IMG/VR virus record: IMGVR_UViG_3300045988_081205 | From: a virus | Length of the DNA stretch: 64,000 bases | Reading direction: 5' to 3' (one strand) | Shown: piece by piece, positions 18,161 through 38,344 of the stretch | How the letters are laid out: every line of letters begins with the position of its first letter | Numbering within the stretch: the stretch's first letter is position 1 | Translations under genes and position numbers: made by a program | Notes under the pieces: model-generated | Told to the model about the DNA's origin: nothing | Database searches by the model: none | The model's input: only the letters and a program-made list of their open reading frames with translations

Positions 18161-18192
18161 CCAAGTATCAAATGAAAGGGGCGGTTGTTATT

Positions 18193-22355: not shown

Positions 22356-22373
22356 AAAATTTTATGGTATAAT
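22345..22373 (+). promoter_or_regulatory. consensus promoter of HNH cassette A
   Basis: TTGACA, 17 nt, TGgTATAAT; the -35 overlaps the last codons and stop of the polymerase gene. Confidence 0.65.
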
Positions 22374-22385
22374 ATAAGAAAGGTT

Positions 22386-22465
22386 AATAGAGGGTAGCTA
22401 ACTTCTATTATTTAGGAGAGTTGCTTATACCAACTCTCCACTTTTAATATTTCTTGTATAAGGAG
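22386..22465 (+). promoter_or_regulatory. HNH-gene leader A: two hairpins plus loop-to-SD pseudoknot
   Basis: Hairpin 1 22386-22409; hairpin 2 22415-22439 with loop CTTATAC (22424-22430) complementary to GTATAAG (22456-22462), which abuts the SD. Confidence 0.6.
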
Positions 22466-22476
22466 AATATATACAT

Positions 22477-23151
22477 ATGGAAGAAAAAGAAATCTGGAAA
22501 GATGTAGTTGGGTATGAAGGTTATTATCAAGTAAGTAATTTAGGACAAGTAAAATCGTTGGACAGGTATGTTAAATACAAGAGAACTGGATTGCGGTTGA
22601 TAAAAGGTAAAATTTTATCACAGAAAACAGATAGAAATGGATATAAATGTGTATTGATATGTATAGATAACAAAAGGTGGTATGTGACAGTGCATAGACT
22701 TGTGGCATTGATGTTTGTACCAAATCCAGATAATAAGCCACAAGTTGGACATAAAGATGAAACTAAAACAAATAATCGAGCAGATAATCTCGAATGGGTA
22801 ACTCCAAAAGAAAATAGTAATATGCCAAAACATATAGAAAGATTGTCTGTTGTGTTATCTGGTGAAAATAATCCAATGTATGGAAATTACGGAAAGTTAA
22901 GTTCTAGATGGAAAGCTGTTGTAACTGAAGAAACACGTGCAAAAATGTCTAAGAAATCAAAAGGAAGATTTACAAGAGCAACCCATCCAGCTTCTAAAAA
23001 AGTTATGTGTGATGGAATTGTTTATGATACTATTCTGGATTGTGCAGAGCATTATGGAATGAATCGTAATACATTTAGTAATTATTTGAACGGAAGAGTA
23101 AAAATGCCAGATAAATGGAAAAATCTAGGGCTTTCTTTTTATAAGAAATAA
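22477..23151 (+). mobile_element. free-standing HNH homing endonuclease (NUMOD4 + HNH_3 type)
   Basis: EIWKDVVGYEGYYQVSNLGQVKS (NUMOD4-like); HRLVALMFVPNP...GHKDETKTNNRADNLEWVTPKEN (HNH_3-like). Confidence 0.8.
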
Positions 23152-23152
23152 A

Positions 23153-23236
23153 ATGAAAAAGGATGAAAACGGTGAATGGGTGACGCTGAACGAAAAAATT
23201 GTGGAGATGAAATGTTGGAAGAAATTGGAGGTGTAA
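23153..23236 (+). pseudogene. relic duplicate of the polymerase 3' end (27 codons)
   Basis: MKKDENGEWVTLNEKIVEMKCWKKLEV aligns without gaps to the polymerase C-terminus KKNEDGEWIKTGEKENIIKCWKILDK, 13/26 identical by my count. Confidence 0.6.
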
Positions 23237-23239
23237 ATA

Positions 23240-23587
23240 ATGGATACTGTTGAATTTTTGAATGAAGGTACTAGGATGTGTAATAATTATGAAGCATGTG
23301 TTGGTTGTCCTATGGAGGAAACAGATGATTGCTGTATGGTTAATATGAATCTCAAGCAAATGATAAGTATTGTGGAGCAATGGGCAAAAGAACATCCTAT
23401 AAAAACAAGGCAGAGCGAATTGCTTAAGCTATTTCCTGAAGCTAGTGTGCTATATGATGAATATCTAAATATCTGTCCAGCTCAACTTTCAAGTGAATGT
23501 CGTGATAAGGAAACTGGTGGATGTTATGACCCCGGAATGGATTGTGGCAAATGCAAACGTGATTTTTGGCTAAAAGAAATTGAATGA
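23240..23587 (+). CDS. hypothetical Cys-rich protein
   Basis: ORF track; GGAGGTG upstream. Confidence 0.6.
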   Translation: MDTVEFLNEGTRMCNNYEACVGCPMEETDDCCMVNMNLKQMISIVEQWAKEHPIKTRQSELLKLFPEASVLYDEYLNICPAQLSSECRDKETGGCYDPGMDCGKCKRDFWLKEIE

Positions 23588-23592
23588 GGTGA

Positions 23593-23757
23593 ATGATGAC
23601 AAATCAAGAAGCTGCCACATTGATAGTCAAGGAATATGGCAATTATAGAGGAATTTGTATTGAATATAAGCAATTTTCTTATATCAACCCAAATCTATCT
23701 GAAGCTATTGCTATGGCTATAGCAGCATTAAATAAAGAAAATAATAAGGAGGATTAA
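23593..23757 (+). CDS. hypothetical 54-aa protein
   Basis: Below track cutoff; fills gap; GAGGTGA upstream (second ATG 23596 equally possible). Confidence 0.4.
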   Translation: MMTNQEAATLIVKEYGNYRGICIEYKQFSYINPNLSEAIAMAIAALNKENNKED

Positions 23758-23765
23758 GTAAGTAA

Positions 23766-24398
23766 ATGAGTAAAGCAATTATGATTATTGGGGCAAGCGG
23801 TTCCGGTAAGACAACTAGCCTAGAGCATCTTGACCCAAAGCTGACATTTTACATTGATGCAGATGGTAAAGGACTAAGTTGGAAGGGATGGCGCAATCAA
23901 TATAATAAGACTAATAAGAATTATTTTGTATGTGATGACCCTAATTCTATTTATAGTCTAATGCAGCAAATCAATGATAAACAGAAGCAGATTAAGTATC
24001 TTGTGATTGACACACTGAATGGCTGTATGGTAGCAGATGAGATGCGCCGAGCTAAGGAAAAGGCGTATGACAAGTGGATGGATTTAGCGCAGAGCGTATA
24101 TAGCATTGTTGATTTCTCTAATAAGATGCGTGATGATCTTACGGTGATTCTCATTGGTCATACTCAGACAAGCGATGATGGATTTACTTGTATGCTCACC
24201 AATGGGCGCAAGCTCAATAAGATTTGTCTTGAAAGCAAGATGACCACTGTGCTACTATCTCGAATCAACGATAATGGCGAATATGTGTTTGAAACAAGAG
24301 CAAAGAATAGCACGGCTAAGACCCCAAGAGGCGCGTTTGAAAAGGATGAAATTCCTAATGATATTATGTTAGTCATTGATGCTCTGAAAGATTTCTAA
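23766..24398 (+). CDS. Sak4-like / AAA_24 RecA-fold ATPase
   Basis: Walker A GASGSGKTTS at N-terminus; Walker B LVIDTL; size and position typical. Confidence 0.7.
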   Translation: MSKAIMIIGASGSGKTTSLEHLDPKLTFYIDADGKGLSWKGWRNQYNKTNKNYFVCDDPNSIYSLMQQINDKQKQIKYLVIDTLNGCMVADEMRRAKEKAYDKWMDLAQSVYSIVDFSNKMRDDLTVILIGHTQTSDDGFTCMLTNGRKLNKICLESKMTTVLLSRINDNGEYVFETRAKNSTAKTPRGAFEKDEIPNDIMLVIDALKDF

Positions 24399-24476
24399 CT
24401 ACTCCAGCTAAAAAAGCTGAGTAAAATATAAACAATCTATTTATTAAAATCAAATTAAAGCGAGGTTAAATTTATT

Positions 24477-25088
24477 ATGAAGCGAATCAATAATTGGGAG
24501 AATATTCAGGAAAGCACATCTTTTAAGCGTCTAACGCCAAATGGCTATATTGTTAAGATTCTCAATGTAGAAGATCATCCTGAAAAGGAATATCTCAAGA
24601 TTTATTTTGACATCGTAAAGGGCGATGATAAGGGTTATTTCAAGAAGCAGTATGACGGCGATACGCGCAAGGAACGCAAATGGCCCAATGCTGGTACATT
24701 CATCCGTTCTTATAAGGATTCTGCGGCATCTATGTTTAAGGGATTTATCAATGCCATTGAAAAGTCCAATAAGGGCTATCAGTGGAATTTTGACGAAAAG
24801 ACGCTTGTCAATAAGGTCGTTGGTCTAATTATTGCCGATGAGCAGTATCAGAATCAGAAGGGTCAGGTTCGTGTCCGTAACTATGTCGCGGCCGTTCGCT
24901 CTGTTGAGACTATTGAAAAGGACGAATATGAAATTCCTGCGCTCAAGGAGCTGACCACCACAAAGACCACAACTGCTCCTGCTAATGACCTAATCCCTGA
25001 TTTTGGCGATGTGTTTAACACTACACCAACCCCTGCTGAATCAGAAAATCCTTGGGATGATTCTGACGAGAATAATCCCTTCATGTAA
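24477..25088 (+). CDS. SSB-like protein (DUF669-like)
   Basis: Sits directly after the Sak4-like ATPase; acidic C-terminal tail DDSDENNPFM resembles an SSB tip. Confidence 0.45.
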   Translation: MKRINNWENIQESTSFKRLTPNGYIVKILNVEDHPEKEYLKIYFDIVKGDDKGYFKKQYDGDTRKERKWPNAGTFIRSYKDSAASMFKGFINAIEKSNKGYQWNFDEKTLVNKVVGLIIADEQYQNQKGQVRVRNYVAAVRSVETIEKDEYEIPALKELTTTKTTTAPANDLIPDFGDVFNTTPTPAESENPWDDSDENNPFM

Positions 25089-25097
25089 AAATAATAC

Positions 25098-25126
25098 TTG
25101 ACAAAAAGTTAATGCTGTGATATAAT
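25098..25126 (+). promoter_or_regulatory. consensus promoter of HNH cassette B
   Basis: TTGACA, 17 nt, TGaTATAAT. Confidence 0.65.
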
Positions 25127-25139
25127 TACAATAGAGGTT

Positions 25140-25226
25140 GATAAGAAGTTGCAAATTCTTATCATTTGAAGGAAGGTTGCTCGTCTCGACCTTCCTTACT
25201 CTACAAATTAAATCTAAGACGAGGAG
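25140..25226 (+). promoter_or_regulatory. HNH-gene leader B: two hairpins plus loop-to-SD pseudoknot
   Basis: Hairpin 1 25140-25163; hairpin 2 25169-25197 with CTCGTCT (25180-25186) complementary to AGACGAG (25217-25223), which overlaps SD GAGGAG. Confidence 0.6.
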
Positions 25227-25234
25227 ATTTTATT

Positions 25235-25798
25235 ATGGAAGAAATTTGGAAACCAGTTAAAGTTAGGGGAGAAGATTTCACAGGATATTATGAAGTTAGC
25301 AATTTAGGAAGAATTAAAAAATTGTCAACATGGAGTTGTGACGGTAAAAGATTTCTAAAAGAGCGGATTATGAAACAAACTCTTGATAAGAAGGGTTATT
25401 TGACTGTAAATTTGCAAAAGGGAAGTCGCCGTTTTACTCGTATATTTGTGCATAGAATAGTAGCAGAGGCATTTATTCCTAATCCAAATGATCTACCTCA
25501 AGTTGGGCATAAAGACGATACGGTATTAAAGACTAATAACTGTATTGAAAATCTTTATTGGACAACTAACAAAGAAAATGCAAATACAGAAGGAAGAAAA
25601 CAAAGATTATCTATGTCTCATATGGGCGCAAAAAATCATGGTGCTAGAGCTGTGATATGTGAAGGCATTACATTTCCAACGATGTCCGATTGCGCTAAAC
25701 ATTATAATATATTTGTTCAAAATATATGTGCGTGGTTAAATGGGAGAGAAAAAATGCCAAACCTATGGATTCAAAGAGGACTAAAAAGAGTTGATTAA
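25235..25798 (+). mobile_element. free-standing HNH homing endonuclease (NUMOD4 + HNH_3 type)
   Basis: ATG 25235; EIWKPV...GYYEVSNLGRIKK; HRIVAEAFIPNP...GHKDD...NLYWTTNKEN; paralogue of 22477..23151. Confidence 0.8.
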
Positions 25799-25821
25799 CG
25801 ATAAGAATTCATAAAAATATT

Positions 25822-25852
25822 AAAGGCGGGGCTTGACAATCCCGCCTTTTTA
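25822..25852 (+). terminator. intrinsic terminator with a promoter -35 in its loop
   Basis: AAAGGCGGG (25822-25830) / CCCGCCTTT (25841-25849) followed by a T run. Confidence 0.65.
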
Positions 25853-25861
25853 TTATATGAT
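25833..25861 (+). promoter_or_regulatory. sigma70-type promoter
   Basis: TTGACA, 17 nt, TATGAT; nested in the terminator hairpin. Confidence 0.5.
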
Positions 25862-25880
25862 AACTGTGAGGTGATGATGC

Positions 25881-26510
25881 TTGAATAGATTTCTATGTGT
25901 AGCTCAACTGCAAGAACTGCGAATCGACCTATATCAGACCCATATGAAAGCCAAATTCAGCGTCATCACTAATCATCAATGCCTTACTATGAGCCAAACA
26001 TTGAGCCGCAAATGGAATGAGCCGCAAATCAAATCATGGCTGACAATGGCACAATATATCCATCCACGTATAGACAGCTATATATATGTCAAAAATAAAC
26101 ATTATTATACAATGAAAAAATCTGATATACCTACTAGGCTATTGGTATCAGGCAATATCAATGAATGGAAAAAATCATTATATTATAATGTGCAATATTG
26201 CCGTATAGTTGAATATAATGCAGCTGATAGCATGAATATAGAAATGGATGGGCAATGGCTGGATTCATGGAGATTCTTGAATATATGCGGCGATTCACCT
26301 AGAGTGTTTACTATCAAGCGTCCTGACGGCTGTGAGGGCTGTATATGCCGATTGCGGCTTGAATATGATGCAGGATATAACATAGAGCAAAATCGGGTCA
26401 TAGCGCATCCTAGCGGTCTTGGTGTGGTTGATTGCAAGAAAACAGATGCGGTTATGAGCCAAGAAGAAATTGATAAGTGGATGTTAGAATATGAGATAAT
26501 TTCCTCTTGA
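25881..26510 (+). CDS. hypothetical protein
   Basis: ORF track (TTG start); GAGGTGA upstream. Confidence 0.55.
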   Translation: MNRFLCVAQLQELRIDLYQTHMKAKFSVITNHQCLTMSQTLSRKWNEPQIKSWLTMAQYIHPRIDSYIYVKNKHYYTMKKSDIPTRLLVSGNINEWKKSLYYNVQYCRIVEYNAADSMNIEMDGQWLDSWRFLNICGDSPRVFTIKRPDGCEGCICRLRLEYDAGYNIEQNRVIAHPSGLGVVDCKKTDAVMSQEEIDKWMLEYEIISS

Positions 26511-26535
26511 CAAATCAATCAACATATGATATACT
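26507..26535 (+). promoter_or_regulatory. consensus promoter (family member)
   Basis: TTGACA, 17 nt, TGaTATACT. Confidence 0.65.
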
Positions 26536-26565
26536 TGGATTATCAAAAAGATGGAGGTAATAAAT

Positions 26566-26712
26566 ATGAAATGGGAAGCGTGGTATTATGACTATATCAA
26601 TGGCAACAAGAAAACGTACATTTACGTTGAAGCCGATTCTTTTGATGAGGCGATTGCTAAAGCTCGTCGTATTGACCTTAGAGTAAACGCGGCAAGAGTG
26701 GTAAGTGAATGA
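26566..26712 (+). CDS. hypothetical 48-aa protein
   Basis: Below track cutoff; ATG 7 nt after GGAGGT; its TGA overlaps the next ATG (26709). Confidence 0.5.
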   Translation: MKWEAWYYDYINGNKKTYIYVEADSFDEAIAKARRIDLRVNAARVVSE

Positions 26713-27191
26713 GCAAGCCACCTACAGTTAAATGCCGCCAATGCGGTAAATCAACGCCAAAACAAGATGCAATCGAATATAAGCCTAAGTTCTATTTCTG
26801 CTGTGAACAATGTAGGCAGGATTATATCAATGCTCATATCGTTAAGCCCAAAGCAGAATCAAAAGATGATAGGCGCAAATTGCTGGATTATATACGTCAA
26901 GTTGCCCCTGATGCCAATATGCGGCTTGTAGGTATCCAGCTTGCTCAGTTGATGAAAGATAATCCTGATATGACATATGGCGGCATTGCTTATACTATCA
27001 GATATATCCATAAAGAGCTTGGAAAGGATATATCTCAATCGCCGCTTGGACTGGTCAAGTATAAGTATGATGAATGTAAAAAATATTATGCTTGGCTAAA
27101 TCAGGTAAGACAGAATATACAGCAATGGCAAGCTGAAGATGGAGTTGAGACGATTGTGAAAAGAAATGATGAGGAGGATGTGTTTGGATGA
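26709..27191 (+). CDS. hypothetical zinc-ribbon protein; replication accessory role possible from position only
   Basis: ORF track; CRQCG...CCEQC; lies upstream of the DnaB-like helicase. Confidence 0.6.
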   Translation: MSKPPTVKCRQCGKSTPKQDAIEYKPKFYFCCEQCRQDYINAHIVKPKAESKDDRRKLLDYIRQVAPDANMRLVGIQLAQLMKDNPDMTYGGIAYTIRYIHKELGKDISQSPLGLVKYKYDECKKYYAWLNQVRQNIQQWQAEDGVETIVKRNDEEDVFG

Positions 27192-27448
27192 AACATAAAA
27201 TGATTGGATGTTCTGAAGAATGCCTAGAATTTGCCTGTTGCGATTTCTGCATCTATGTTCACCATGATTTTTTCTTTGATAAAGACGGTGATATTGTCCG
27301 TGGCGGACCAGTTGGATGTGGATTGCATGACGATGAGCGTCATCAAGATATCGCTGAAAGCTGTGGTCATTGTCCTGATTTCCATTGTTTTAGAGCACAT
27401 GAAGATAATATGGTTGTAAAGGAGATTGATGATGATGACGTGGTATAG
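27188..27448 (+). CDS. hypothetical Cys/His-rich protein
   Basis: ORF track; ATGA coupling. Confidence 0.55.
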   Translation: MKHKMIGCSEECLEFACCDFCIYVHHDFFFDKDGDIVRGGPVGCGLHDDERHQDIAESCGHCPDFHCFRAHEDNMVVKEIDDDDVV

Positions 27449-27656
27449 TATTGGCAAAAATAGTAAACCAGATGATTATGAATGGGTGCTTGTTTCATTT
27501 CTTACAGAAGACAGTAGACAAAGATGCTCTGGCACTTGTGTTGTAGCTGCACTTTGGGAAGATGATGAGGGATGTGCTATATGGTATGACGGTAATCGAT
27601 TCTATAACATTCATACAACAGACCGTTGGGCATATATTGAATTGCCGGAGGAATAA
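27429..27656 (+). CDS. DUF551-like protein
   Basis: AAGGAG upstream; C-terminal RWAYIELPEE. Confidence 0.5.
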   Translation: MMMTWYSIGKNSKPDDYEWVLVSFLTEDSRQRCSGTCVVAALWEDDEGCAIWYDGNRFYNIHTTDRWAYIELPEE

Positions 27657-27659
27657 TCA

Positions 27660-29132
27660 TTGCTCTATGACCAAAATTCTGTTAGGCTGCTATTAGGTTG
27701 TTTGCTAATTAAGCCATCTCTTGCTATTTCTGATAAGTACCCTCTAAGCCGTGATGATTTTACGGTCGATTTTCATCTCAGATTATGGCAAGGGTGTGTT
27801 GCCCTAGCTAAGCGTGGAGCTGAGTCCATATCGTCACTAGACATTTATATGCTATGTAAGAACAATAAGCAGGTAGAGGATATATTCAAGTTAAATCAGT
27901 TAGACGATTTCATTGATACAGTCAAGCAGCTTGCTAATGTAGGTAATTTTGAGGTCTATTACAACAACACGCGCCGAGCCACATTACTTCGTTCTTACAA
28001 AAACGCTGGCTATAATGTAGACAAATTTGAGCAAGACGATAAAGCGACCATAGAGGATATAGTACAATACTTTGACGCACAGCAAATAGCTATAAAAAAG
28101 CAATTTTATAAAGACAAGGATATAGACGAGCTAAAAGCCGGTGATGGATTTGAAGCGGTTAAAGAGGGATTTAAGGCAGAGCCGCTATTCGGTGCAACGA
28201 CTTTTAGTGAATATCTAAACACAGCAGCTAGAGGCTGGATTCCGGGGCAGCTATCTATCTATTCAGTCGGTTCAGGCGTAGGAAAGTCAACTATTGGCTT
28301 GGCTAATCTTGTGCAAGTATGTTGTCCTAGAATCTATGATATGGATAAGGGGCAATATGTAGACAATCCATGTTATCAACATAAAGCTGGTCTATATCTT
28401 CAATTTGAAATGGCTGGTGATACTGAAATTACGCCTAAAATTGTGGCTACAATTAGCGGCGTACCATGCTTTAGCATCTTGAATGGGCGGTATGAAGAAG
28501 GTGAAGAAGAGCGTGTGGATGAGGCTATTAAAATTCTGCATGAATCTAAGTTATATATCGTCACCATGCCCAATTATACTGTTGATTTGATTGAATCCTA
28601 TGTAAAGGATTATGTAGTCAATAAGCAAGTGGGCTTCCTATGTTATGATTATATCGTTGAATCCTCATCTGTATCGAGCGACTTAGCTAAAAAGAATGGC
28701 GTATCTACTCGTTCAGATCAGGTGCTATCTGGCATAGCAAGTAAGCTCAAGGATTTAGCTGTTGAATATAATATCGCCGTCTTGACATTTACTCAGGTCA
28801 ATGCTAATGCTATGACGCAAGAAATTATGGATAGCGGCGTTGCGGCTGGTTCAAGAGCAATTCAGAACAAGGCTGATGTAGCTGGCGTAATCATGCCATT
28901 ACGCCGTAAGGAGCAAGAGATAGCTGATATGATGATGGAGAAATATTCTGATAAGATAAAGCCAAATCGCGTATTACACCTCTATAAGATGCGCTTCTCA
29001 CAGGTTGAGCAAGGTATTAAGATATATTTTAATCTTGATTTGAATACAGGTCGAACAAAGGATTGTTTTGTAACCACAAAATTCGATAATCCTTATCAAT
29101 TAACTAAGACAAGGTTGGTGTATGCTAAATGA
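27660..29132 (+). CDS. dnaB: DnaB-like replicative helicase
   Basis: TTG start after GGAGGA; Walker A GSGVGKST; Walker B-like LCYDYIV; N-terminal LLGCLLIKPSL DnaB-type domain. Confidence 0.75.
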   Translation: MLYDQNSVRLLLGCLLIKPSLAISDKYPLSRDDFTVDFHLRLWQGCVALAKRGAESISSLDIYMLCKNNKQVEDIFKLNQLDDFIDTVKQLANVGNFEVYYNNTRRATLLRSYKNAGYNVDKFEQDDKATIEDIVQYFDAQQIAIKKQFYKDKDIDELKAGDGFEAVKEGFKAEPLFGATTFSEYLNTAARGWIPGQLSIYSVGSGVGKSTIGLANLVQVCCPRIYDMDKGQYVDNPCYQHKAGLYLQFEMAGDTEITPKIVATISGVPCFSILNGRYEEGEEERVDEAIKILHESKLYIVTMPNYTVDLIESYVKDYVVNKQVGFLCYDYIVESSSVSSDLAKKNGVSTRSDQVLSGIASKLKDLAVEYNIAVLTFTQVNANAMTQEIMDSGVAAGSRAIQNKADVAGVIMPLRRKEQEIADMMMEKYSDKIKPNRVLHLYKMRFSQVEQGIKIYFNLDLNTGRTKDCFVTTKFDNPYQLTKTRLVYAK

Positions 29133-29302
29133 CATGGGTGATTTATGGAATAGCATTGTGTGTATCGTTTTTAGCCATTCTTTTTGGAGAATACGAATAC
29201 AAGAGAACCAATAAATATAGCGATTTGCTCATATGCGGCATTGGTTGTGGTTTATTGGCGTTTACGTTGATGTTCGGCGCGACATTGATTTTTGTCTTAT
29301 GA
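29129..29302 (+). CDS. 57-aa two-TM membrane protein
   Basis: Below track cutoff; ATGA overlaps at both ends (with helicase stop and primase start). Confidence 0.5.
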   Translation: MTWVIYGIALCVSFLAILFGEYEYKRTNKYSDLLICGIGCGLLAFTLMFGATLIFVL

Positions 29303-30668: not shown

Positions 30669-30677
30669 ATTTAATAC

Positions 30678-30706
30678 TTGACAATCAACCTCCTTTATGA
30701 TATAAT
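30678..30706 (+). promoter_or_regulatory. consensus promoter with anti-SD in spacer
   Basis: TTGACA, 17 nt, TGaTATAAT; 30683-30695 is the exact complement of 30722-30734. Confidence 0.65.
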
Positions 30707-30739
30707 CACTATATCAACAATAAGGAGGTTGATTTTATT

Positions 30740-31174
30740 ATGAGTAAATTCAAAGTAGGAGATAAGGTGGCTTATGTAACCAAGCCAGATGAAGAAATTG
30801 GCGAGGTGAATTGTGTCGTAGAGGACAGATATGGTTGTCATATCTTTGTTGCGTTCAACAAAAAGAAAGTATATGAAATGCAACTAGCCGGTTATAACTA
30901 TGATGAAGATAAGTTAGTTAAGATTGACGAGTATACCTTATCAGATGATGAAATCTATACCATGCTCAAGCCGAAGCTCGAAAGTATGTGTATGAAAACA
31001 GAATATCACAAATTATTGCCAACTGTATTTGAATTAGAATTTGAATCACAAAAGGATTATGACCCATATGTTCCAGAAAGTGATGTAATTAAAGCTATTG
31101 CTCTAGCATATCGTTCTGGTTATCTTAGAGCTAAGAAAGGAAGACCATTTAAGATTGGAGGAGAGAAAGAATGA
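30740..31174 (+). CDS. hypothetical protein
   Basis: ORF track; AAGGAGG upstream. Confidence 0.6.
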   Translation: MSKFKVGDKVAYVTKPDEEIGEVNCVVEDRYGCHIFVAFNKKKVYEMQLAGYNYDEDKLVKIDEYTLSDDEIYTMLKPKLESMCMKTEYHKLLPTVFELEFESQKDYDPYVPESDVIKAIALAYRSGYLRAKKGRPFKIGGEKE

Positions 31175-31404
31175 TTGAATGGCATAAAGTAACAGATGAA
31201 TTGCCACCATATGATACGCCAGTTCTTGTGTCTGGTTCAGACACAGGCACATATCTAGAGGAATATGTTCATGTAATGAAAATATTTATTAAGAATCATA
31301 CATATCTGTGGCAATGCATGTGGGACGCTGATGTGTATGAAGTATATGAAGATGATTATTGGGCATATATTAACTTACCAAAAAAGGACGGTGATTCAGA
31401 TTAA
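31171..31404 (+). CDS. DUF551-like protein
   Basis: ATGA coupling; WHKVTDELPP start and C-terminal YWAYINLPKKD. Confidence 0.5.
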   Translation: MIEWHKVTDELPPYDTPVLVSGSDTGTYLEEYVHVMKIFIKNHTYLWQCMWDADVYEVYEDDYWAYINLPKKDGDSD

Positions 31405-33010: not shown

Positions 33011-33177
33011 GCAATTTAAGAAAATGGACTAAGGCGATTAGTATGGTTACATCTGTTATACTATATACACTGATTTTACGTGGTTATAGCAACAGATTGG
33101 TGTTGTTGGTAGTGGCTGTTATTGCTTGTATGACAAATAGCCTAGATGGTTGGATTGGAGGGGATGAGTCTAATTGA
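33007..33177 (+). CDS. small membrane protein (up to 56 aa)
   Basis: Below track cutoff; TTG 33007 overlaps the RecJ-like stop (alternative ATG 33043); hydrophobic core. Confidence 0.35.
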   Translation: MSNLRKWTKAISMVTSVILYTLILRGYSNRLVLLVVAVIACMTNSLDGWIGGDESN

Positions 33178-33353
33178 GTAGAGCAGAAAGAAATCGTCGC
33201 AAACGGATTGAGCGTCCCCTAAAATATGCTCCTATCAAATGCCCAAATTGCGGCTTAATGGTAGATGAAAAATATGTAGTTGACATAAATTCTACCTGTC
33301 CTATTTGTGGTAATGAGTTATTTGCAGAATTAAAGAAAATGATTGAAAAATAA
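33174..33353 (+). CDS. 59-aa zinc-ribbon protein
   Basis: Below track cutoff; TTGA overlap; CPNCG...CPICG. Confidence 0.45.
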   Translation: MSRAERNRRKRIERPLKYAPIKCPNCGLMVDEKYVVDINSTCPICGNELFAELKKMIEK

Positions 33354-33366
33354 TTAAAATAGGGTA

Positions 33367-33395
33367 TTGACAAAGCCTCCTGTTCATGGTATACT
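33367..33395 (+). promoter_or_regulatory. consensus promoter with anti-SD in spacer
   Basis: TTGACA, 17 nt, TGgTATACT; 33376-33385 complementary to 33408-33417. Confidence 0.65.
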
Positions 33396-33425
33396 TGATT
33401 TATCAAAGAACAGGAGGTTGTTTTA

Positions 33426-33686
33426 ATGCAAGACGTATTAACCTATGAAGCATGGCTCGATGCTGTATGTCATATCTGTAATAGCTTGTTGAAAGCAAAT
33501 GTAAGCATAACAGGCAATAACGAATTTAAGGTGACAGCTACAAAATATCGTTGGATTACATTTGTTGATTGCATTGGATTTGAAGTAATGTACAATGAAG
33601 GCTTTGAGCCAGCATTTGGTGCAACTAAGCTGATGGAAATTATTATTGATAGATGGGAACAACTGCTGGTTGAGGAGGATAAATAA
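33426..33686 (+). CDS. hypothetical protein
   Basis: ORF track; CAGGAGG upstream. Confidence 0.6.
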   Translation: MQDVLTYEAWLDAVCHICNSLLKANVSITGNNEFKVTATKYRWITFVDCIGFEVMYNEGFEPAFGATKLMEIIIDRWEQLLVEEDK

Positions 33687-34381
33687 TGCAATATATGGGT
33701 GGCAAAAGCCGCATTTCTAAACAAATTGCAGAGGTATTAAATTCAGCTATCAACAAAGATACACCGTTTGTAAGCCTGTTTTGCGGCTCATGTGCTATTG
33801 AATCAAAAGTACAAGCAGATGTTAAAATTCTTAATGACAAGCATCCATATCTCATTGCTATGTGGCAAGCACTACAAAATGGCTGGACACCGCCTGATGT
33901 TGTGACCAAAGAAGAATATTATCGTGTTAAAGCTAATATGGACGAAAATCCTGCATTGACTGGATTTGTTGGATTTGGTTGCTCATTCGGCGGAAAATGG
34001 TTTGGAGGTCTAGCAAGCAATAAAAAAGGCGATAATTATTGTGCAAGAGCAGAGCGTAGTTTGCTCAAAGATTTGCGCGGAGTACAATCTGCTACATTCA
34101 CTTGCCTTGACTATCATGACGTAGAAATCCCGGATGGTGCGGTTGTATATTGTGACCCACCCTATGCCAATACGACGGGATATACAGTTGGACAATTTGA
34201 TACGAATGAATTTTGGTATTATATGCGTCAGCTGTCTAAGCGATGTGATGTATATATCAGTGAGGAATCTGCGCCTGATGATTTTGAATGTGTATGGTCA
34301 CAAGAATTAACGAGAACGCTTGACTTCAATAAATCCAATCAACCAAAGAAAGTAGAAAAATTGTTCAAATATAAGGGATAA
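33686..34381 (+). CDS. dam: Dam-like N6-adenine DNA methyltransferase (D12 class)
   Basis: N-terminal YMGGKSRI and catalytic DPPY (VYCDPPYANT). Confidence 0.8.
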   Translation: MQYMGGKSRISKQIAEVLNSAINKDTPFVSLFCGSCAIESKVQADVKILNDKHPYLIAMWQALQNGWTPPDVVTKEEYYRVKANMDENPALTGFVGFGCSFGGKWFGGLASNKKGDNYCARAERSLLKDLRGVQSATFTCLDYHDVEIPDGAVVYCDPPYANTTGYTVGQFDTNEFWYYMRQLSKRCDVYISEESAPDDFECVWSQELTRTLDFNKSNQPKKVEKLFKYKG

Positions 34382-34382
34382 T

Positions 34383-37300
34383 ATGCAAACAGTAAAATTA
34401 ACCCCAATGCGCATGATATTCAATAACCCTGAATCCAATTTCTCAATTATATCATGCAGCACTAAGGATGAAACAATAGAAATCAACCCTCAATATGGCA
34501 CAATCAGCCTAAAAGGAACTGGCATTGCCGATCTGAAAATGGGGCAATCCATTGATTGTATCATAGAGCCATGTGTGGATGATAAATACAAATACAGCTA
34601 TAAATTCATTGGCTTTGCTGGATTTGTAGCTAAAGATGGCAAATTCAACCTAACTGAAAAAGCCGAGCTACAGACATTGCGTAGTTTAATGACTAATGGG
34701 CAAGCTGAATCATGTCATGCCGCATATCCTCATTTTGTCAGTATGGTGCTGAATGGTGAAGCCGACAAGCTAGACTACAAAAAAATTCGTGGCGTAGGCA
34801 AGGTGTTATTGCCAAGATATATTGATAAAATCAAGACGATCAACAAGCGTGTGGAATTTATGGGAGAAACATATGCTTGGGGCATTGAGCATGATGAGGA
34901 TATAAACAAAATCGCCGCGGCATATAAGAACGTATATGGATTCAGCCAAGATATAAATACCAATCCATATGCTATTATGATTAACTTGCTTGAATGGTCA
35001 TTTGATAGAGCAGATAGGGTGATAACTAAGAAAACAGCAAAATGGCTGGATAGCTATGAACGATGTGAGGCGGCTACTATCTATGCTCTAAAGCATAATG
35101 AGCTGGACGGCAATACAAGGATGCAAGCCAAGATGTTGTTTGATATGGTAAAGCGCAAAGCCCCTCAATGCGTTCATCATCTCCTCGATGTTGTGACGAA
35201 ATCGGCGCAAGTACACTATGACGCTCCTAGCCAAAACACAGCTCTACAAGTCACATATAGTGCTGAACAGCATATTGCTGATGTTATCAAGAAAAAAATA
35301 GCCAATCCACATTACTATCCTATGGATTGGCAGAAGTTTACAAGTGTAGACGGTTTAGAGCTGACTGATGAACAAACGCAGATTCTTGAAATGGCTTGTA
35401 AACAAGATGTTATGATGCTGACTGGTTCGGCTGGTTGTGTTGATTGCGATACTGAATTTTTTACTGGTACTGGTTGGAAGCGAATTGCGGATTATCAAGA
35501 CGGCGACAGGGTGCTTCAGTACAACGAGGACGGAACAGCAGAACTTGTAAATCCCATTGCTTATATCAAGAAGACATGCAATACGTTATGGCATTTTGAG
35601 ACGCTTCGAGGATTAAATCAAACTGTCTGTGATGATCATAGAATTATATATGAAACAAGAGACGGTGTATTAAAAGAATGTAATATTGAACAACTAAAAC
35701 AAATGCACTTACCGTCAACCAAGAATTTCCAAGGGAGGTTTCTCACAACATTCAACCTTGGTGGTTCTGGTATAGATTTAAATGAATGGCAAATTCGTCT
35801 AATGTGCGCGGTTTTGGCAGATGGGCATTTCAACGCCGGTAATAAAAATAGCACAAGATGTACATTTCATATAAAAAAGCAACGTAAGAAAGATAGACTG
35901 ATTTATCTTTTCAATAAAAATGGACTTGAATATAAAGAACATGAAAGTACAGAAGAAGGATATACTGACTATCATGTGTATGTTCCAAGGAGAGAAAAGC
36001 AATTTACAGAGTATTGGTATGGGTGTTCTAATGAACAATTAAAGATAATTGTAGATGAGGTTGTTTATTGGGATGGATGTATAAGATACACAAAAAATAA
36101 TACTAAGTATTTAACTTATTGTTCATCTATAAAATCAGACGCAGATTTCATTCAATATGCAGCATCCGCGATTGGAATTAGAGCGTCTATAAGCACTTGT
36201 AATAGAATTGGTGAAATCAAGCATTTGAACGGGAAAGAATATATTAGAAAGACAAATGTATATACGGTTCATTTTTCCAACAGAACAAAAGTAGGATTGT
36301 GTTCAGATAATAGAAGTAAATGTACTAAAACGCCCATAACTCAAGTGCCAACCACTGATGGATATAAATACTGCTTTACAGTACCATCACATATGCTCGT
36401 ACTAAGAAGAAAAGATTGCATTTTCATTACTGGCAACTGTGGCAAAACAACAAGTATGCAAGCACTTGTTAATATGCTAGATAGCAATGGGTACACATAT
36501 ACTCTACTTGCCCCGACAGGAATATCTAGCAAAAAATTACGAGAAGCAACGCAAAAAGAAGCGTCCACCATCCATATGTTTTTAACCATGAGTGAGAACC
36601 TAGGAGATTATCTAATCATAGATGAAGCCAGTCAAATTAGCGTCCATTTGCTATCAATGCTATTTGATAAGGTAACAGACCGTACTAAGATAATCTTCAT
36701 AGCCGACCCATCTCAGCTTGCATCTATTGCTTGCGGCAACATTGTTGAGGATATGCTTGATAGCGGCATCGTGCCTGTATGTAACTTGACTAAGGTATTC
36801 AGATATAACACATCTGGCATTATTACTATAGCTACTGATGTACGAAATGGAGTAAATGACCATCTGACAGATACTTTCACAGATTATAAGTTCATTGAAA
36901 CTGATACATTAGTAATCAAGCAAATTGAGCAAGAATATGCGCGGCTCTTAGCAGATGGATACAGTAAGGATGATGTGCTGATTCTATCTCCATTCAATAA
37001 GGGTGATGTTGGCTCATTGGCTATCAATGCGGCGATTCAAGCCAAATTCAATCCAAATGAATTAAGCAAGGTTGGGCATACTGTCAATGATGTACCTATA
37101 TATTTCAAAGTTGGCGATAAGGTAATCAATAAAAAGAATGAATATGCTATGCCGCTTGTTGATGATGATACGGCTTTTGTAGCAAATGGCGATATTGGCA
37201 CAGTGATGGAAATTGTGCCTGATGAAAAAGAGCCATATATGATTGTGCGATATGATTGCGGCGATTGTATAGTAGATAAGGCGCATATCAAGAATACGCT

Positions 37301-37535
37301 ACTTAGTTATTGTGTCAGCATCCATTCAGCGCAAGGTAGCCAAGCAAAGGCTGTGATTGTAGTGATTGATAGAAGCCACGTAAGGATGCTATCGCGCAAC
37401 TTGTGCTATACAGCGGTATCACGCGCACAAGAGCGGCTAATATTGATTGGAGATGAGGCGGCTATTCAAGATGGGCTAAAGGTGCAAGAGGAAAAGGAAA
37501 GGGATACTTATTTGCGATATTTTTTAATAAAATAA
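34383..37535 (+). CDS. SF1 (RecD/Dda-like) DNA helicase precursor with an intein in the Walker A motif
   Basis: Extein joins to LTGSAG-CGKTTSMQAL; IIDEASQ Walker B; SIHSAQGSQ and CYTAVSRAQERLILIG C-terminal SF1 motifs. Confidence 0.8.
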   Translation: MQTVKLTPMRMIFNNPESNFSIISCSTKDETIEINPQYGTISLKGTGIADLKMGQSIDCIIEPCVDDKYKYSYKFIGFAGFVAKDGKFNLTEKAELQTLRSLMTNGQAESCHAAYPHFVSMVLNGEADKLDYKKIRGVGKVLLPRYIDKIKTINKRVEFMGETYAWGIEHDEDINKIAAAYKNVYGFSQDINTNPYAIMINLLEWSFDRADRVITKKTAKWLDSYERCEAATIYALKHNELDGNTRMQAKMLFDMVKRKAPQCVHHLLDVVTKSAQVHYDAPSQNTALQVTYSAEQHIADVIKKKIANPHYYPMDWQKFTSVDGLELTDEQTQILEMACKQDVMMLTGSAGCVDCDTEFFTGTGWKRIADYQDGDRVLQYNEDGTAELVNPIAYIKKTCNTLWHFETLRGLNQTVCDDHRIIYETRDGVLKECNIEQLKQMHLPSTKNFQGRFLTTFNLGGSGIDLNEWQIRLMCAVLADGHFNAGNKNSTRCTFHIKKQRKKDRLIYLFNKNGLEYKEHESTEEGYTDYHVYVPRREKQFTEYWYGCSNEQLKIIVDEVVYWDGCIRYTKNNTKYLTYCSSIKSDADFIQYAASAIGIRASISTCNRIGEIKHLNGKEYIRKTNVYTVHFSNRTKVGLCSDNRSKCTKTPITQVPTTDGYKYCFTVPSHMLVLRRKDCIFITGNCGKTTSMQALVNMLDSNGYTYTLLAPTGISSKKLREATQKEASTIHMFLTMSENLGDYLIIDEASQISVHLLSMLFDKVTDRTKIIFIADPSQLASIACGNIVEDMLDSGIVPVCNLTKVFRYNTSGIITIATDVRNGVNDHLTDTFTDYKFIETDTLVIKQIEQEYARLLADGYSKDDVLILSPFNKGDVGSLAINAAIQAKFNPNELSKVGHTVNDVPIYFKVGDKVINKKNEYAMPLVDDDTAFVANGDIGTVMEIVPDEKEPYMIVRYDCGDCIVDKAHIKNTLLSYCVSIHSAQGSQAKAVIVVIDRSHVRMLSRNLCYTAVSRAQERLILIGDEAAIQDGLKVQEEKERDTYLRYFLIK
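35436..36437 (+). mobile_element. intein (334 aa) with LAGLIDADG-type homing endonuclease domain
   Basis: Starts CVDCDTEF (block A), TVCDDH (block B), LMCAVLADGHF and IIVDEVVYWDGC (LAGLIDADG-like), ends FITGN followed by +1 Cys of CGKTT. Confidence 0.75.
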
Positions 37536-37539
37536 TATA

Positions 37540-37568
37540 TTGACAAATATCTATATATGTGATATAAT
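37540..37568 (+). promoter_or_regulatory. consensus promoter of HNH cassette C
   Basis: TTGACA, 17 nt, TGaTATAAT. Confidence 0.65.
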
Positions 37569-37581
37569 ATAAATAAGGGTA

Positions 37582-37662
37582 AATGGAAGGTGTACAACTT
37601 CTATTCTTTAAGGAGAACGCTTATCTCGTTCTCCTACCTTAATATTTTCTAAGATAAGGAGA
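37582..37662 (+). promoter_or_regulatory. HNH-gene leader C: two hairpins plus loop-to-SD pseudoknot
   Basis: Hairpin 1 37582-37605; hairpin 2 37612-37634 with loop CTTATCT (37620-37626) complementary to AGATAAG (37652-37658), which overlaps the SD. Confidence 0.6.
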
Positions 37663-37672
37663 AATATGTGTT

Positions 37673-38344
37673 ATGAGTAAATTCAAAAATTTGACAGGAA
37701 TGAGATTTGGGAAACTAACAGCGGTTAAAATAGTAAAAAATTGTGAGCATAAGTGTAAAAGTGTAATTTGGCAATGCAAATGTGATTGCGGAAATATAGT
37801 GAACGTTAGAAGTAGTAATTTAATAAACGGACATACAAAATCCTGTGGATGTATAAGAAAAGAAATAATCATGAACAGAGACAAAGAACGAGCGATTCAT
37901 AATGATTGTAACTCGAGGCTTTATAGAATTTGGCATGGTATGAAAAATAGATGTAATAATCCAAACGCTTACAACTATAAAAATTATGGTGGTAGAGGTA
38001 TTACGATTTGTCCAGAATGGGAAGAATTTATTCCATTTAGAGAATGGTCCAACAGCAACGGTTATGCAGACAATCTTACTATTGATAGAATTGACGTCAA
38101 TGGAAATTATTGCCCTGAAAATTGTAGATGGGCTGATATAAAGACCCAAAATAACAATACCACTAGAAACAGATTGCTAACAGCGTTTGGAGAAACAATG
38201 AATGTTGCTCAGTGGAGTGAAAAGGTAGGTATAAAAAGAGGAGTTATATATACTAGAATCGATACTTATAAATGGGATGTGGAAAAAGCTCTAACAACAC
38301 CAGTTGAGCAAAGAAAGCCTAGAATTAAAGGAGATGCTGATTAA
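37673..38344 (+). mobile_element. free-standing HNH-type endonuclease (different family from A and B)
   Basis: RLYRIWHGMKNRC..YGGRGI..CPEW and LTIDRIDVNGNYCPENCRWADIKTQNNN motifs. Confidence 0.65.

What the first reader, a model, noticed from the sequence alone, without database searches (positions are those of the whole stretch)
22386..37675. Conserved two-hairpin plus pseudoknot leader upstream of all three HNH endonuclease genes
Each HNH gene is preceded by a consensus promoter and a leader of about 100 nt with the same architecture.

Hairpin 1 has an 8-bp stem and an 8-nt loop of the form GTnnnnAA:
- 22386-22409
- 25140-25163
- 37582-37605

Hairpin 2 has an 8-9 bp stem:
- 22415-22439
- 25169-25197
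- 37612-37634

In every case, 7 nt of the hairpin-2 loop are perfectly complementary to the 7 nt that abut or overlap the SD:
- Leader A: CTTATAC with GTATAAG
- Leader B: CTCGTCT with AGACGAG
- Leader C: CTTATCT with AGATAAG

The loop and its partner covary at several positions, and both stems also covary. This argues for a selected H-type pseudoknot that occludes the RBS. The leader is shared by two unrelated HNH families (A and B versus C), so it behaves as a portable translational control module for selfish endonucleases. I am not aware of a described motif matching this.
Basis: seen in the sequence. Interest (0 to 1): 0.75.

Follow-up and report, generated by a model that had tools for sequence, protein, structure and literature searches.

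The report
Structured RNA leader on phage endonuclease genes
Three selfish HNH endonuclease genes in this uncultured gut phage each carry the same folded ~100-nt RNA leader, which base-pairs its own ribosome-binding site; this is a previously uncatalogued, portable version of a known way of throttling such nucleases.

Summary
A covariance model found 58 copies (42 distinct) in related human-gut phage contigs. Nearly all follow a consensus promoter and all directly precede an HNH gene.

The fold is richer than reported:
- The 5'-terminal nucleotides pair just after hairpin 2 (helix P0), giving a three-way junction.
- The "pseudoknot partner" is the 7-nt loop of a small hairpin (P3) whose 3' arm is the Shine-Dalgarno core. 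Hairpin 2 therefore kisses an SD-holding hairpin and the whole SD is paired.
- The hairpin-1 loop always holds a covarying 6-nt palindrome.

All helices covary (95.7% of cells paired against 74.8% in shuffles; G·U 75 against A·C 4).

The leader travels inside AT-rich cassettes that are present or absent among relatives. Near-identical leaders precede unrelated HNH families.

The best reading is a self-contained translational attenuator of homing endonucleases. This is inferred, not shown.

Closest known are the T4-type RBS-sequestering hairpins and the orphan Rfam motif int-alpA (RF02996). RF02996 has the same architecture and sits before some HNH homologues elsewhere, but its model does not match these leaders.

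Verdict: new variant of a known kind.

The parts
22192..23142 (+). Mobile cassette A: recoded dnaE 3' end, promoter, leader and HNH gene
   Evidence: This stretch is absent in relatives L023 and L024, where the flanks are contiguous. GC is 30.3% against 38.7% for the window. The same dnaE 3' end plus leader is 90% identical in L065, whose DnaE is otherwise only 30% identical.
22345..22373 (+). Promoter of cassette A (TTGACA-17-TATAAT, TG-extended)
   Evidence: 12/12 consensus match.
22379..22476 (+). Leader A. P0 22379-82 with 22441-44. P1 22385-22410 (loop 22394-22401, palindrome TAGCTA). P2 22415-22439 (loop L2 22424-30). P3 22451-55 with 22463-67 (loop L3 22456-62). SD AAGGAGA 22460-66.
   Evidence: Coordinates. 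MFE fold. CM hit of 99.8-102.5 bits. Covariation.
22477..23151 (+). HNH endonuclease A (224 aa; NUMOD4, HNH_3, NUMOD3)
   Evidence: Pfam hits at 1.3e-18 and 3.7e-10; phrog_59 at 1.7e-43.
25074..25810 (+). Mobile cassette B: promoter, leader and HNH gene
   Evidence: Absent in L023, L026, L037, L038, L042 and others, where 25073 joins about 25811 directly. GC is 33.0%.
25098..25126 (+). Promoter of cassette B
   Evidence: 12/12 consensus match.
25133..25234 (+). Leader B. P0 25133-36 with 25199-202. P1 25139-64 (loop 25148-55, palindrome TTGCAA). P2 25169-97 (L2 25180-86). P3 25210-15 with 25225-30 (L3 25217-23). SD GAGGAGA.
25235..25798 (+). HNH endonuclease B (187 aa; NUMOD4, HNH_3)
   Evidence: It is 36% identical to A.
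37540..37568 (+). Promoter of cassette C
   Evidence: TTGACA-17-TATAAT.
37575..37672 (+). Leader C. P0 37575-78 with 37637-40. P1 37582-37605 (loop 37590-97, palindrome TGTACA). P2 37611-35 (L2 37620-26). P3 37646-50 with 37660-64 (L3 37652-58). SD AAGGAGA.
37673..38344 (+). HNH endonuclease C (223 aa; phrog_374 family)
   Evidence: phrog_374 at 5.5e-77, no Pfam hit, no similarity to A. Segment 37536-38344 has 32.4% GC. The cassette limits were not mapped.

Best explanation
The element is a cis-acting 5' untranslated RNA of about 95-100 nt. It is built into free-standing HNH homing-endonuclease cassettes of an uncultured clade of ~85-100 kb human-gut phages whose nearest cultured relatives are Enterocloster phages.

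**Predicted fold.**
- Transcription from the cassette's own consensus promoter starts at the first nucleotide of helix P0.
- The RNA folds into a three-way junction of P0, P1 and P2.
- The 7-nt loop of P2 then kisses the 7-nt loop of a small downstream hairpin, P3.
- The P3 loop and its 3' arm together contain the whole Shine-Dalgarno sequence: AAG lies in the kissing helix and GAGAA in the P3 stem.

**Predicted effect.**
- The SD is held paired on every transcript, so 30S binding must compete with the fold. The nuclease is translated at a low or gated level despite a strong promoter and a strong SD.
- The 5'-terminal helix probably also stabilises the mRNA.
- Because the device is self-contained, it works wherever the cassette lands. 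This explains why recombination has placed it in front of unrelated HNH genes.

**Shown and inferred.**
- Shown in silico: the structure, its selection, the gene association, the mobility and the modularity.
- Inferred: the transcription start, the repressive effect, and any way of relieving it.
For: **Structure.**
- 38 proposed pairs were counted on 42 distinct sequences. 95.7% of cells are paired against 74.8% in shuffles, and 31 pairs change on both sides. Sliding the partners by 1-3 columns drops pairing to 44-55%.
- An unbiased mutual-information scan ranked only proposed pairs in its top 16. The next best pair revealed P3.
- G·U outnumbers A·C by 75 to 4, so the fold is read on the + strand as RNA.
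- P0 starts 6-7 nt after the -10 hexamer in all three window copies.
- Folding from that predicted start gives the junction as the MFE structure.

**SD occlusion.**
- Loop complementarity is 7/7 in every parsed copy.
- P3 pairs WUCU with AGAW of the SD: 91% of cells paired, with position 98-114 split UA 19 / AU 18.
- In three more divergent leader types before HNH genes, the P2 loop pairs with more of the SD itself: CCUUAU with AUAAGG, AACUCC with GGAGUU, and CCUACAU with AUGUAGG.
- The independent Rfam motif int-alpA, found before 6 HNH homologues, shows the same loop-to-AAGG pairing with covariation.

**Specificity and mobility.**

**Precedent.** RBS-sequestering RNA structures limit translation of I-TevI, I-TevII, I-TevIII, segB and mobE (PMC3014915, PMC2988022).

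**Same strategy on the phage backbone.** Three backbone promoters in this window (18132, 30678, 33367) carry 8-12 nt complements of their own SD in the promoter spacer.
Against: - There are no experimental or transcript data. The transcription start and the promoter activity are inferred from consensus.
- The kissing helix is AU-rich. Its calculated duplex energy is -4.8 to -9.0 kcal/mol, against -7.9 to -9.4 for SD:anti-SD. Occlusion may therefore be only partial.
- P3 is short (4-6 bp) and only 2 of its 5 pairs covary.
- A simple attenuator does not explain the invariant junction nucleotides (G9 U10, U38 U39 U41, A75).
- It also does not explain the strictly palindromic, covarying P1 loop. 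These hint at an added input.
- A pseudoknot abutting an SD can activate translation rather than repress it, as in IncI-alpha repZ (from my own knowledge).
Confidence: 0.6

Rival explanations
1. The leader is a conditional switch rather than a fixed attenuator. The three-way junction or the palindromic P1 loop would receive a signal that opens or locks the L2-L3 kiss and so times nuclease synthesis. The signal could be a phage or host protein dimer, homodimerisation of the RNA through a loop-loop kiss, or a small ligand.
For: - The unpaired junction nucleotides are nearly invariant while the adjacent stems vary freely.
- The P1 loop is a 6-nt palindrome in 41 of 42 distinct copies, with covariation among TTGCAA, TGTACA, TGCGCA and TAGCTA. 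The palindrome pairs are 99.2% self-complementary. TTGCAA and TCATGA recur in divergent types.
- No second copy of the hexamer is conserved in cis. This fits an intermolecular or protein contact.
Against: - No ligand, protein or dimer has been shown.
- The only gene association is with HNH genes, not with a pathway.
- All copies come from one phage clade plus one outlier, so some of the conservation could reflect recent ancestry.
- The fourth divergent type (L040:4201) has no evident palindrome.
Confidence: 0.2
2. The fold mainly stabilises the mRNA or enhances translation. The base-paired 5' end would protect against 5'-dependent RNases. The loop pairing next to the SD would act as a translational enhancer, as in the IncI-alpha/IncB repZ pseudoknot.
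For: - P0 begins at the predicted 5' terminus.
- In the main family the kissing helix covers only the 5' edge of the SD.
Against: - P3 pairs the SD core.
- In the divergent types the loop pairs GGAG itself.
- The SD (AAGGAGA, 7-10 nt spacing) is already strong and is not buried in a competing hairpin without the kiss. Its mean unpaired probability is 0.37-0.72 in a model without pseudoknots.
Confidence: 0.08
3. The element is a transcription attenuator or terminator. Hairpin 2 would stop most transcripts before the HNH gene.
For: Hairpin 2 of leader A, followed by ACTTTTAATA, is flagged as terminator-like.
Against: - Across the family the sequence after hairpin 2 is (U)ACUCU(A/U)AAUA, not a U-tract, and part of it pairs in P0.
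- Hairpin 2 of leader B was not flagged in the same scan.
- A terminator does not explain the selected loop-to-SD pairing.
Confidence: 0.03
4. The element acts at the DNA level, as a palindromic operator, a cruciform or part of the homing site. Alternatively it is a stand-alone small RNA or a ribozyme.
For: - Hairpin 1 is a near-perfect 24-bp DNA palindrome just downstream of the promoter.
- Rfam files the architecturally similar int-alpA as an sRNA.
Against: - G·U 75 against A·C 4 shows a strand-specific RNA fold.
- The half-sites are not conserved in sequence but covary.
- No terminator separates the leader from the ORF.
- There is no match to any ribozyme or other Rfam family.
Confidence: 0.04

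Closest known systems
RBS-sequestering hairpins of T4-type homing endonuclease genes (I-TevI, I-TevII, I-TevIII, segB; mobE of phage Aeh1)
   Same: A cis RNA structure pairs the Shine-Dalgarno sequence of a phage homing-endonuclease gene and limits its translation (PMC3014915, PMC2988022).
   Different: - Those are single, gene-specific hairpins. They form only on read-through transcripts and are bypassed by a late promoter inside the hairpin.
- Here the structure is a conserved multi-helix module (three-way junction plus kissing loop).
- It is carried on the transcript from the cassette's own promoter and is shared by unrelated HNH genes.
- No internal promoter was recognised.
int-alpA RNA motif (Rfam RF02996; Weinberg et al. 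2017, function unknown; the attribution is from my own knowledge)
   Same: - It has a closing helix around two hairpins.
- The second loop is pyrimidine-rich (CCUU) and complementary to a conserved AAGG downstream (consensus).
- It lies directly upstream of HNH homologues in 6 other viral contigs, with the loop and partner covarying.
   Different: - The RF02996 model gives no hit on these leaders, even at E of 10 or less on short stretches. My model R2 does not hit the int-alpA loci either.
- In int-alpA, P1 is 4 bp with a 5-nt loop, against 8-9 bp with an 8-nt palindromic loop here.
- In int-alpA, P2 is 5 bp with a 9-nt loop, against 9-11 bp with a 7-nt loop here.
- The junction sequences differ: UA / CGAAAA / CU against GU / UUUA / A.
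Cobalamin riboswitch L5-L13 kissing loop, and SD-sequestering pseudoknot riboswitches such as preQ1-II and SAM-II
   Same: A loop of a structured upstream domain pairs with the loop or strand that holds the RBS and blocks initiation (from my own knowledge).
   Different: Those have defined ligand pockets and control genes of one pathway. Here there is no ligand evidence, the only association is with HNH genes, and no Rfam match was found.
ColE1 RNA I/RNA II and HIV TAR-TAR* kissing complexes; HIV-1 DIS palindromic loop
   Same: They are structural precedents for fully complementary 6-7-nt loops pairing end to end, as proposed for L2-L3. They are also precedents for a 6-nt palindrome flanked by purines mediating homodimers, a possible role for the P1 loop (from my own knowledge).
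   Different: Those act in trans between two molecules. L2-L3 is intramolecular, and dimerisation through the P1 loop is untested.
IncI-alpha/IncB repZ(repA) activator pseudoknot
   Same: A hairpin loop pairs with the bases immediately 5' of an SD (from my own knowledge).
   Different: That pairing activates translation. It depends on translation of a leader peptide and is blocked by an antisense RNA. No leader peptide or antisense promoter is conserved here, and here the SD core is itself paired in P3.

Membership tests
Rfam RF02996 int-alpA RNA | Scores at or above the family's gathering threshold (35.8 bits) with the curated covariance model | tested here: not met
   No RF02996 hit was found in four searches:
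- the window at gathering threshold;
- leaders A, B and the L074 type at E of 10 or less;
- six clade loci at gathering threshold.

Positive controls scored 40-59 bits in L141, L122, L178, L183, L174 and L130.
Rfam RF02996 int-alpA RNA | Closing helix enclosing two hairpins (three-way junction) | tested here: met
   P0, P1 and P2 covary in 4/5, 9/9 and 8/9 pairs respectively. The RF02996 consensus structure is shown.
Rfam RF02996 int-alpA RNA | Conserved junction sequences UA, CGAAAA and CU, with short P1 and P2 | tested here: not met
   The junctions here are G-U(N), (N)UUUA(R) and (U)A. P1 is 8-9 bp and P2 is 9-11 bp.
T4-type HEG RBS-sequestering hairpin | The SD of the endonuclease gene is base-paired in a cis RNA structure | tested here: met
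   The kissing helix is 96.9% paired and P3 is 91.4% paired across 42 distinct copies.
T4-type HEG RBS-sequestering hairpin | The inhibitory structure forms only on read-through transcripts, and a late promoter inside it frees the RBS | tested here: inconclusive
   - A consensus promoter lies upstream of the whole structure.
- No good sigma-70-type site lies between P2 and the SD.
- The phage's late-promoter consensus is unknown.
- Three backbone genes in this window do show the T4-type arrangement.
T4-type HEG RBS-sequestering hairpin | Measured repression of translation | not testable with these tools
   This needs reporter, toeprint or infection experiments.
H-type pseudoknot versus kissing loop | A hairpin loop pairs with bases outside its own hairpin | tested here: met
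   Complementarity is 7/7 in every parsed copy, with 12 loop/partner types. 6 of the 7 pairs change on both sides.
H-type pseudoknot versus kissing loop | The partner is itself a hairpin loop (kissing) rather than a free strand (H-type) | tested here: inconclusive
   - P3 is 4-6 bp, 91% paired, with 2 of 5 pairs covarying.
- P3 is longer (7-9 bp) in the divergent types.
- The evidence is supportive, but the helix is weak.
Riboswitch | Conserved fold with invariant unpaired junction nucleotides | tested here: met
Riboswitch | Association with genes of one metabolic or transport pathway | tested here: not met
   All strong hits precede HNH endonuclease genes.
Riboswitch | Specific ligand binding | not testable with these tools
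   This needs in-line probing or ITC.
Free-standing homing endonuclease cassette | Encodes an HNH-family nuclease | tested here: met
   Pfam NUMOD4 and HNH_3 for A and B; PHROG phrog_374 for C.
Free-standing homing endonuclease cassette | Present or absent at the same site among close relatives, with co-conversion of the flank | tested here: met
   - Sites A and B are empty in several relatives.
- The dnaE 3' end travels with cassette A into L065, whose DnaE is otherwise only 30% identical.
- Site C was not covered by the fetched loci.
Free-standing homing endonuclease cassette | Site-specific cleavage of the empty allele | not testable with these tools
   This needs enzyme assays.

The most novel reading that the evidence does not exclude
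The leader is not a passive brake but a sensor. The palindromic P1 loop would make leader RNAs pair with each other, or recruit a dimeric phage or host factor, and the invariant three-way junction would transmit this to the L2-L3 kiss. Nuclease synthesis would then be switched according to transcript dose or infection stage. If so, this leader, and by extension the orphan int-alpA motif, would be a new class of RNA switch dedicated to mobile nuclease genes.
Probability: 0.2. Interest if true: 0.85.

Novelty: new variant of a known kind. Interest (0 to 1): 0.62.

Why it matters
- Homing endonucleases must be expressed enough to spread but not enough to harm their carrier. Known controls in T4-like phages are bespoke hairpins that depend on the host genome's promoters.
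- This element is a self-contained promoter-plus-leader module that moves with the nuclease gene and is swapped between unrelated nucleases. It shows how a selfish gene can bring its own dosage control.
- It is a well-supported new RNA family, with six covarying helices in about 100 nt.
- It gives a testable function, SD capture by the second loop, to the orphan Rfam motif int-alpA.
- It offers a compact, context-independent translational throttle that could be used in Firmicutes engineering.

Tried and rejected
- **BLAST.** blastn of leader A against 50,697 phage records found nothing.
- **Rfam.** Gathering and E-value searches gave only noise: rli28 at 26.9 bits and cow-rumen-4 at 19.9 bits, both far below their cut-offs.
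- **Chance pattern matches.** Pattern hits in two compost contigs, one Burkholderiaceae MAG and L081 were chance, since none scored with the covariance model.
- **False weak hits.** Weak model hits of the L041:6424 type are a backbone terminator with an embedded promoter, not leaders.
- **Cultured relatives.**
  - Enterocloster phage PMBT24 has an HNH gene behind a consensus promoter but only a short unstructured leader, and the model does not hit it.
  - HNH homologues in Streptococcus, Staphylococcus and Lactobacillus phages leave only 0-48 nt upstream.
- **Second copy of the P1-loop hexamer.** None is conserved inside the cassettes.
- **T4-like late promoter inside the linker.** I could not define the phage's late-promoter consensus from the window. 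The ORF beside the helicase is a Dam-type methylase, not a sigma factor.
- **Leader peptide.** The short TTG ORF in hairpin 2 of leader A is not conserved in B or C (read from the sequence).
- **Terminator reading of hairpin 2.** It holds only for leader A.


Full report

Yes. The three sites read exactly as described. Each has these parts:
- a TTGACA-17-TATAAT promoter with a TG-extended -10; A and B were scored 12/12 by the scan, and C is read as 12/12 from the regex match;
- a first hairpin with an 8-9 bp stem and an 8-nt loop G-TNNNNA-A;
- a second hairpin with a 9-11 bp stem and a 7-nt loop;
- a 16-20 nt AU-rich spacer;
- a 7-nt stretch that is the exact complement of the whole second loop and runs into GGAGA.

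The start codon follows 7-10 nt later.

Chance does not account for this:
- A pattern made only of the shared, non-stem positions hits three times in the window, against 0.00 expected in 100 shuffles.
- RNAfold places both hairpins in the MFE and centroid structures of all three leaders, with z-scores of -3.1, -2.2 and -2.2.

- A (22477-23151) and B (25235-25798) are NUMOD4+HNH_3 proteins of phrog_59 and are 36% identical.
- C (37673-38344) belongs to phrog_374, has no Pfam hit, and shows no similarity to A.

Other promoters in the window have a different, short leader of about 30 nt.

**2. A larger family**

The phage is uncultured.
- Its DnaE is at most 39% identical to anything in the phage collection.
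- Its major tail protein is 36% identical to those of Enterocloster phages.

Sequences were gathered in three ways:
- two degenerate DNA patterns scanned over IMG/VR, metagenome contigs and genomes;
- 54 loci fetched with the DnaE protein;
- two covariance models, R1 and R2, built from the hits.

The models find 58 strong copies, of which 42 are distinct, at 61-113 bits under the R2 model used for alignment A6 (45-121 bits under R1). All are in ~85-104 kb contigs from human-gut samples. Pattern matches in compost contigs and in a Burkholderiaceae MAG did not score and were chance.

**3. The fold is richer than reported**

*(a) Helix P0.*
- The four or five bases just before hairpin 1, (U)AGAG, pair with CUCU(A) just after hairpin 2. 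This closes a three-way junction.
- The helix covaries: AAAG/CUUU in A, AAGG/CCUU in C, UAUAGG/CCUAUA in L040:5084 and CAAG/CUUG in L033:1414.
- It starts 6-7 nt after the -10 hexamer in all three window copies. The predicted 5' end of the RNA is therefore inside the helix.
- Folding from that start gives the junction as the MFE structure.

*(b) Helix P3.*
- An unbiased mutual-information scan ranked only proposed pairs in its top 16.
- The next pair, columns 98-114, exposed a further helix.
- WUCU(U) just 5' of the "pseudoknot partner" pairs with (G)AGAW of the SD. Examples are UUCU/AGAA, AUCU/AGAU, UUACU/AGUAA and AAAUCU/AGAUUU. The helix is 91.4% paired.
- The partner is therefore the 7-nt loop of a small hairpin, P3.
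- The interaction is a loop-loop kiss, and the whole SD is paired: AAG in the kissing helix and GAGAA in the P3 stem.

*(c) The hairpin-1 loop.*
- It holds a 6-nt palindrome in 41 of 42 distinct copies: TTGCAA in 28, TGTACA in 7, TGCGCA in 3 and TAGCTA in 3. The palindrome covaries.

*Overall counts.*
- 95.7% of 1590 cells are standard pairs, against 74.8% in shuffles.
- 31 of 38 pairs change on both sides.
- Sliding the partners by 1-3 columns drops pairing to 44-55%.
- G·U pairs outnumber A·C by 75 to 4. The fold therefore belongs to the + strand RNA and not to a DNA palindrome.
- Junction bases are nearly invariant: G9 U10, U38 U39 U41, A75 and A86 U87 A88.

**4. What it is attached to**

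*Association with HNH genes.*
- Every strong copy directly precedes an HNH-type ORF.
- In the clade's loci, 57 of 65 HNH-like ORFs have a leader. The other eight are fragments of frameshifted genes or partial matches in other proteins.
- As a control, I looked for a stable hairpin whose loop has at least 6 nt of complement in the SD zone. It occurs before 37 of 48 distinct HNH-like ORFs and before 3 of 788 other ORFs.
- One of those three is a fourth leader type before yet another HNH gene.

*Mobility.*
- Cassette B (25074-25810) and cassette A (22192-23142) are simply absent from several close relatives.
- The cassettes have 30-33% GC in a 38.7% GC genome.
- Cassette A carries a recoded dnaE 3' end. 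The native C-terminus survives as a remnant at about 23143-23238.
- That dnaE end plus the leader is 90% identical in a contig whose DnaE is otherwise only 30% identical. This is what homing with co-conversion of the flank would produce.

*Modularity.*
- One cluster of 12 leaders that are at least 90% identical precedes four protein clusters. These include both NUMOD4-type and phrog_374-type genes.

**5. How it most likely works**

*Shown in silico.* The RNA from its first base to the SD is a selected fold in which the SD is base-paired.

*Inferred.* This limits 30S binding, so the nuclease is made at a low or gated level in spite of a consensus promoter and a strong SD.

*Support.*
- Three divergent leader types in the same phages keep the architecture but move the second loop's target further onto the SD.
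  - CCUUAU pairs with AUAAGG.
  - AACUCC pairs with GGAGUU.
  - CCUACAU pairs with AUGUAGG.
  - Their P3 stems are 7-9 bp in two of the three types.
- An independent RNA family does the same thing (section 6).
- SD-sequestering hairpins are the established control for I-TevI, I-TevII, I-TevIII, segB and mobE (PMC3014915, PMC2988022).
- This phage uses that classical trick on its own genes. At promoters 18132, 30678 and 33367 the promoter spacer holds 8-12 nt complementary to the gene's SD, giving predicted hairpins of -24 to -29 kcal/mol that only read-through transcripts can form.

*Limits.*
- The calculated kissing duplexes (-4.8 to -9.0 kcal/mol) are no stronger than SD:anti-SD (-7.9 to -9.4). 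I expect attenuation rather than a full block.
- Nothing here says what, if anything, relieves it.
- The palindromic loop and the invariant junction are not needed by a plain attenuator. They keep a switch model alive.

**6. Comparison with what is known**

*Rfam.* No Rfam 15 family matches the leaders.

*Homologues in other phages.*
- I fetched 80 loci encoding phrog_374-type homologues from other viral contigs.
- Model R2 hit only one of them, L154 on a 114-kb contig, at 46.7 bits.
- A crude search for three-way junctions found several leaders with the same architecture.
- Rfam identified five of those as int-alpA RNA (RF02996) at 40-59 bits, ending about 20 nt before the HNH start.
- One more int-alpA copy turned up in an unselected sample of 20 loci.

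*The int-alpA motif.*
- Its consensus is a closing helix around two hairpins. The second loop carries CCUU and the 3' tail carries AAGG.
- In the HNH-linked copies the loop and its partner covary: GCCUU/AAGGC, GUCCUA/UAGGAC and UCCCUG/CAGGGA.
- int-alpA is thus the closest catalogued relative in architecture.
- It is listed as an sRNA. As far as I know its function is unknown, and the two papers found that contain the string do not discuss the RNA.

*Membership.* It fails in both directions.
- RF02996 does not score on these leaders, and R2 does not score on int-alpA loci.
- Helix lengths, loop sizes and junction sequences all differ.

*Cultured phages.* Phages with homologous HNH genes have no room for such a leader, or lack it.

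**7. Rival explanations**

- A terminator reading of hairpin 2 fits only leader A.
- A DNA-level operator or cruciform is contradicted by the G·U to A·C asymmetry and by covarying half-sites.
- An enhancer or stabiliser role is possible for P0, but it fits poorly with pairing of the SD core.
- A conditional switch is the serious rival. It is compatible with everything seen.

**8. Verdict**

- The element is a new, well-defined RNA family: a new variant of two known kinds, the SD-sequestering leaders of homing endonucleases and the int-alpA-type three-way-junction motifs.
- Function awaits structure probing and compensatory-mutation reporter tests.

Noticed in passing
window 18132-18205, 30678-30750, 33367-33435: Three backbone promoters carry an 8-12 nt perfect complement of the downstream gene's SD region in their -35/-10 spacer. 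Predicted hairpins are -24 to -29 kcal/mol. Only read-through transcripts could form them, which is the T4 gene e / I-TevI arrangement with the promoter inside the inhibitory hairpin.
   Followed up: partly
window 22192-22355 and 23143-23238: Cassette A brings its own AT-rich, recoded copy of the DnaE C-terminus (...EDGEWIKTGEKENIIKCWKILDK*). The native C-terminal coding remnant (...ENGEWVTLNEKIVEMKCWKKLEV*) is left stranded after the HNH gene. The promoter -35 overlaps the dnaE stop codon.
   Followed up: partly
L141:1413-1480, L122:1418-1481, L178:1408-1472, L183:1393-1461, L174:1383-1449, L130:1411-1476: The orphan Rfam motif int-alpA (RF02996) lies directly upstream of phrog_374-type HNH genes in other viral contigs. 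These copies have two tandem sites complementary to the second loop. One lies about 25 nt before the start codon and one lies at the SD, which suggests a competition switch.
   Followed up: partly
L053:863-961 (also L024:2429, L025:1959), L040:4090-4200, L040:5084-5191: Some HNH leaders have no promoter and begin a few bases after the 3' end of a tRNA gene. Their closing helices are longer (6-11 bp). Their 5' ends would be made by tRNA processing.
   Followed up: partly
window 35583-36383: An AT-rich segment (31-34% GC) lies inside the 1050-aa RecD-like helicase ORF (about 38-42% GC elsewhere) and has no Pfam hit. It may be an intein or an embedded endonuclease. DnaE in L042, L045 and L053 is about 0.8-1 kb longer than in the window, which also suggests an insertion.
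   Followed up: no
window 25822-25861: The hairpin AAAGGCGGGGCTTGACAATCCCGCCTTT followed by TTATTATATGAT is a terminator-like stem-loop whose loop holds the -35 of the next promoter. It is conserved in many relatives and gave weak false hits with the RNA model.
   Followed up: partly
window 9400-9432, 10167-10200, 13760-13790, 18161-18195, 26536-26568: Backbone early promoters are followed by a shared short leader with the motif (T)ATCAAATGAA before the SD. Its role is unknown.
   Followed up: no
window 10519-10611, 11922-11998, 12460-12531: ARAGORN calls a 93-nt tRNA-Ile(tat) and a tRNA-Leu(caa). Rfam calls the Leu gene and a weak third tRNA at 12460-12531 (30.2 bits) but not the Ile gene. 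The long Ile gene may hold an insert.
   Followed up: no
L001:2880-2960 and L004:2880-2990: NUMOD4-HNH homologues in contigs that, from my own reading of Bacteroidetes-style promoter-like sequences upstream, may belong to phages of Bacteroidetes hosts are also preceded by GC-rich, apparently structured leaders unrelated in sequence to this family.
   Followed up: no
L116:973-1255: One phrog_374-type HNH homologue lies next to a group I intron (RF00028, 81.5 bits). The same nuclease family therefore occurs both intron-associated and free-standing.
   Followed up: no
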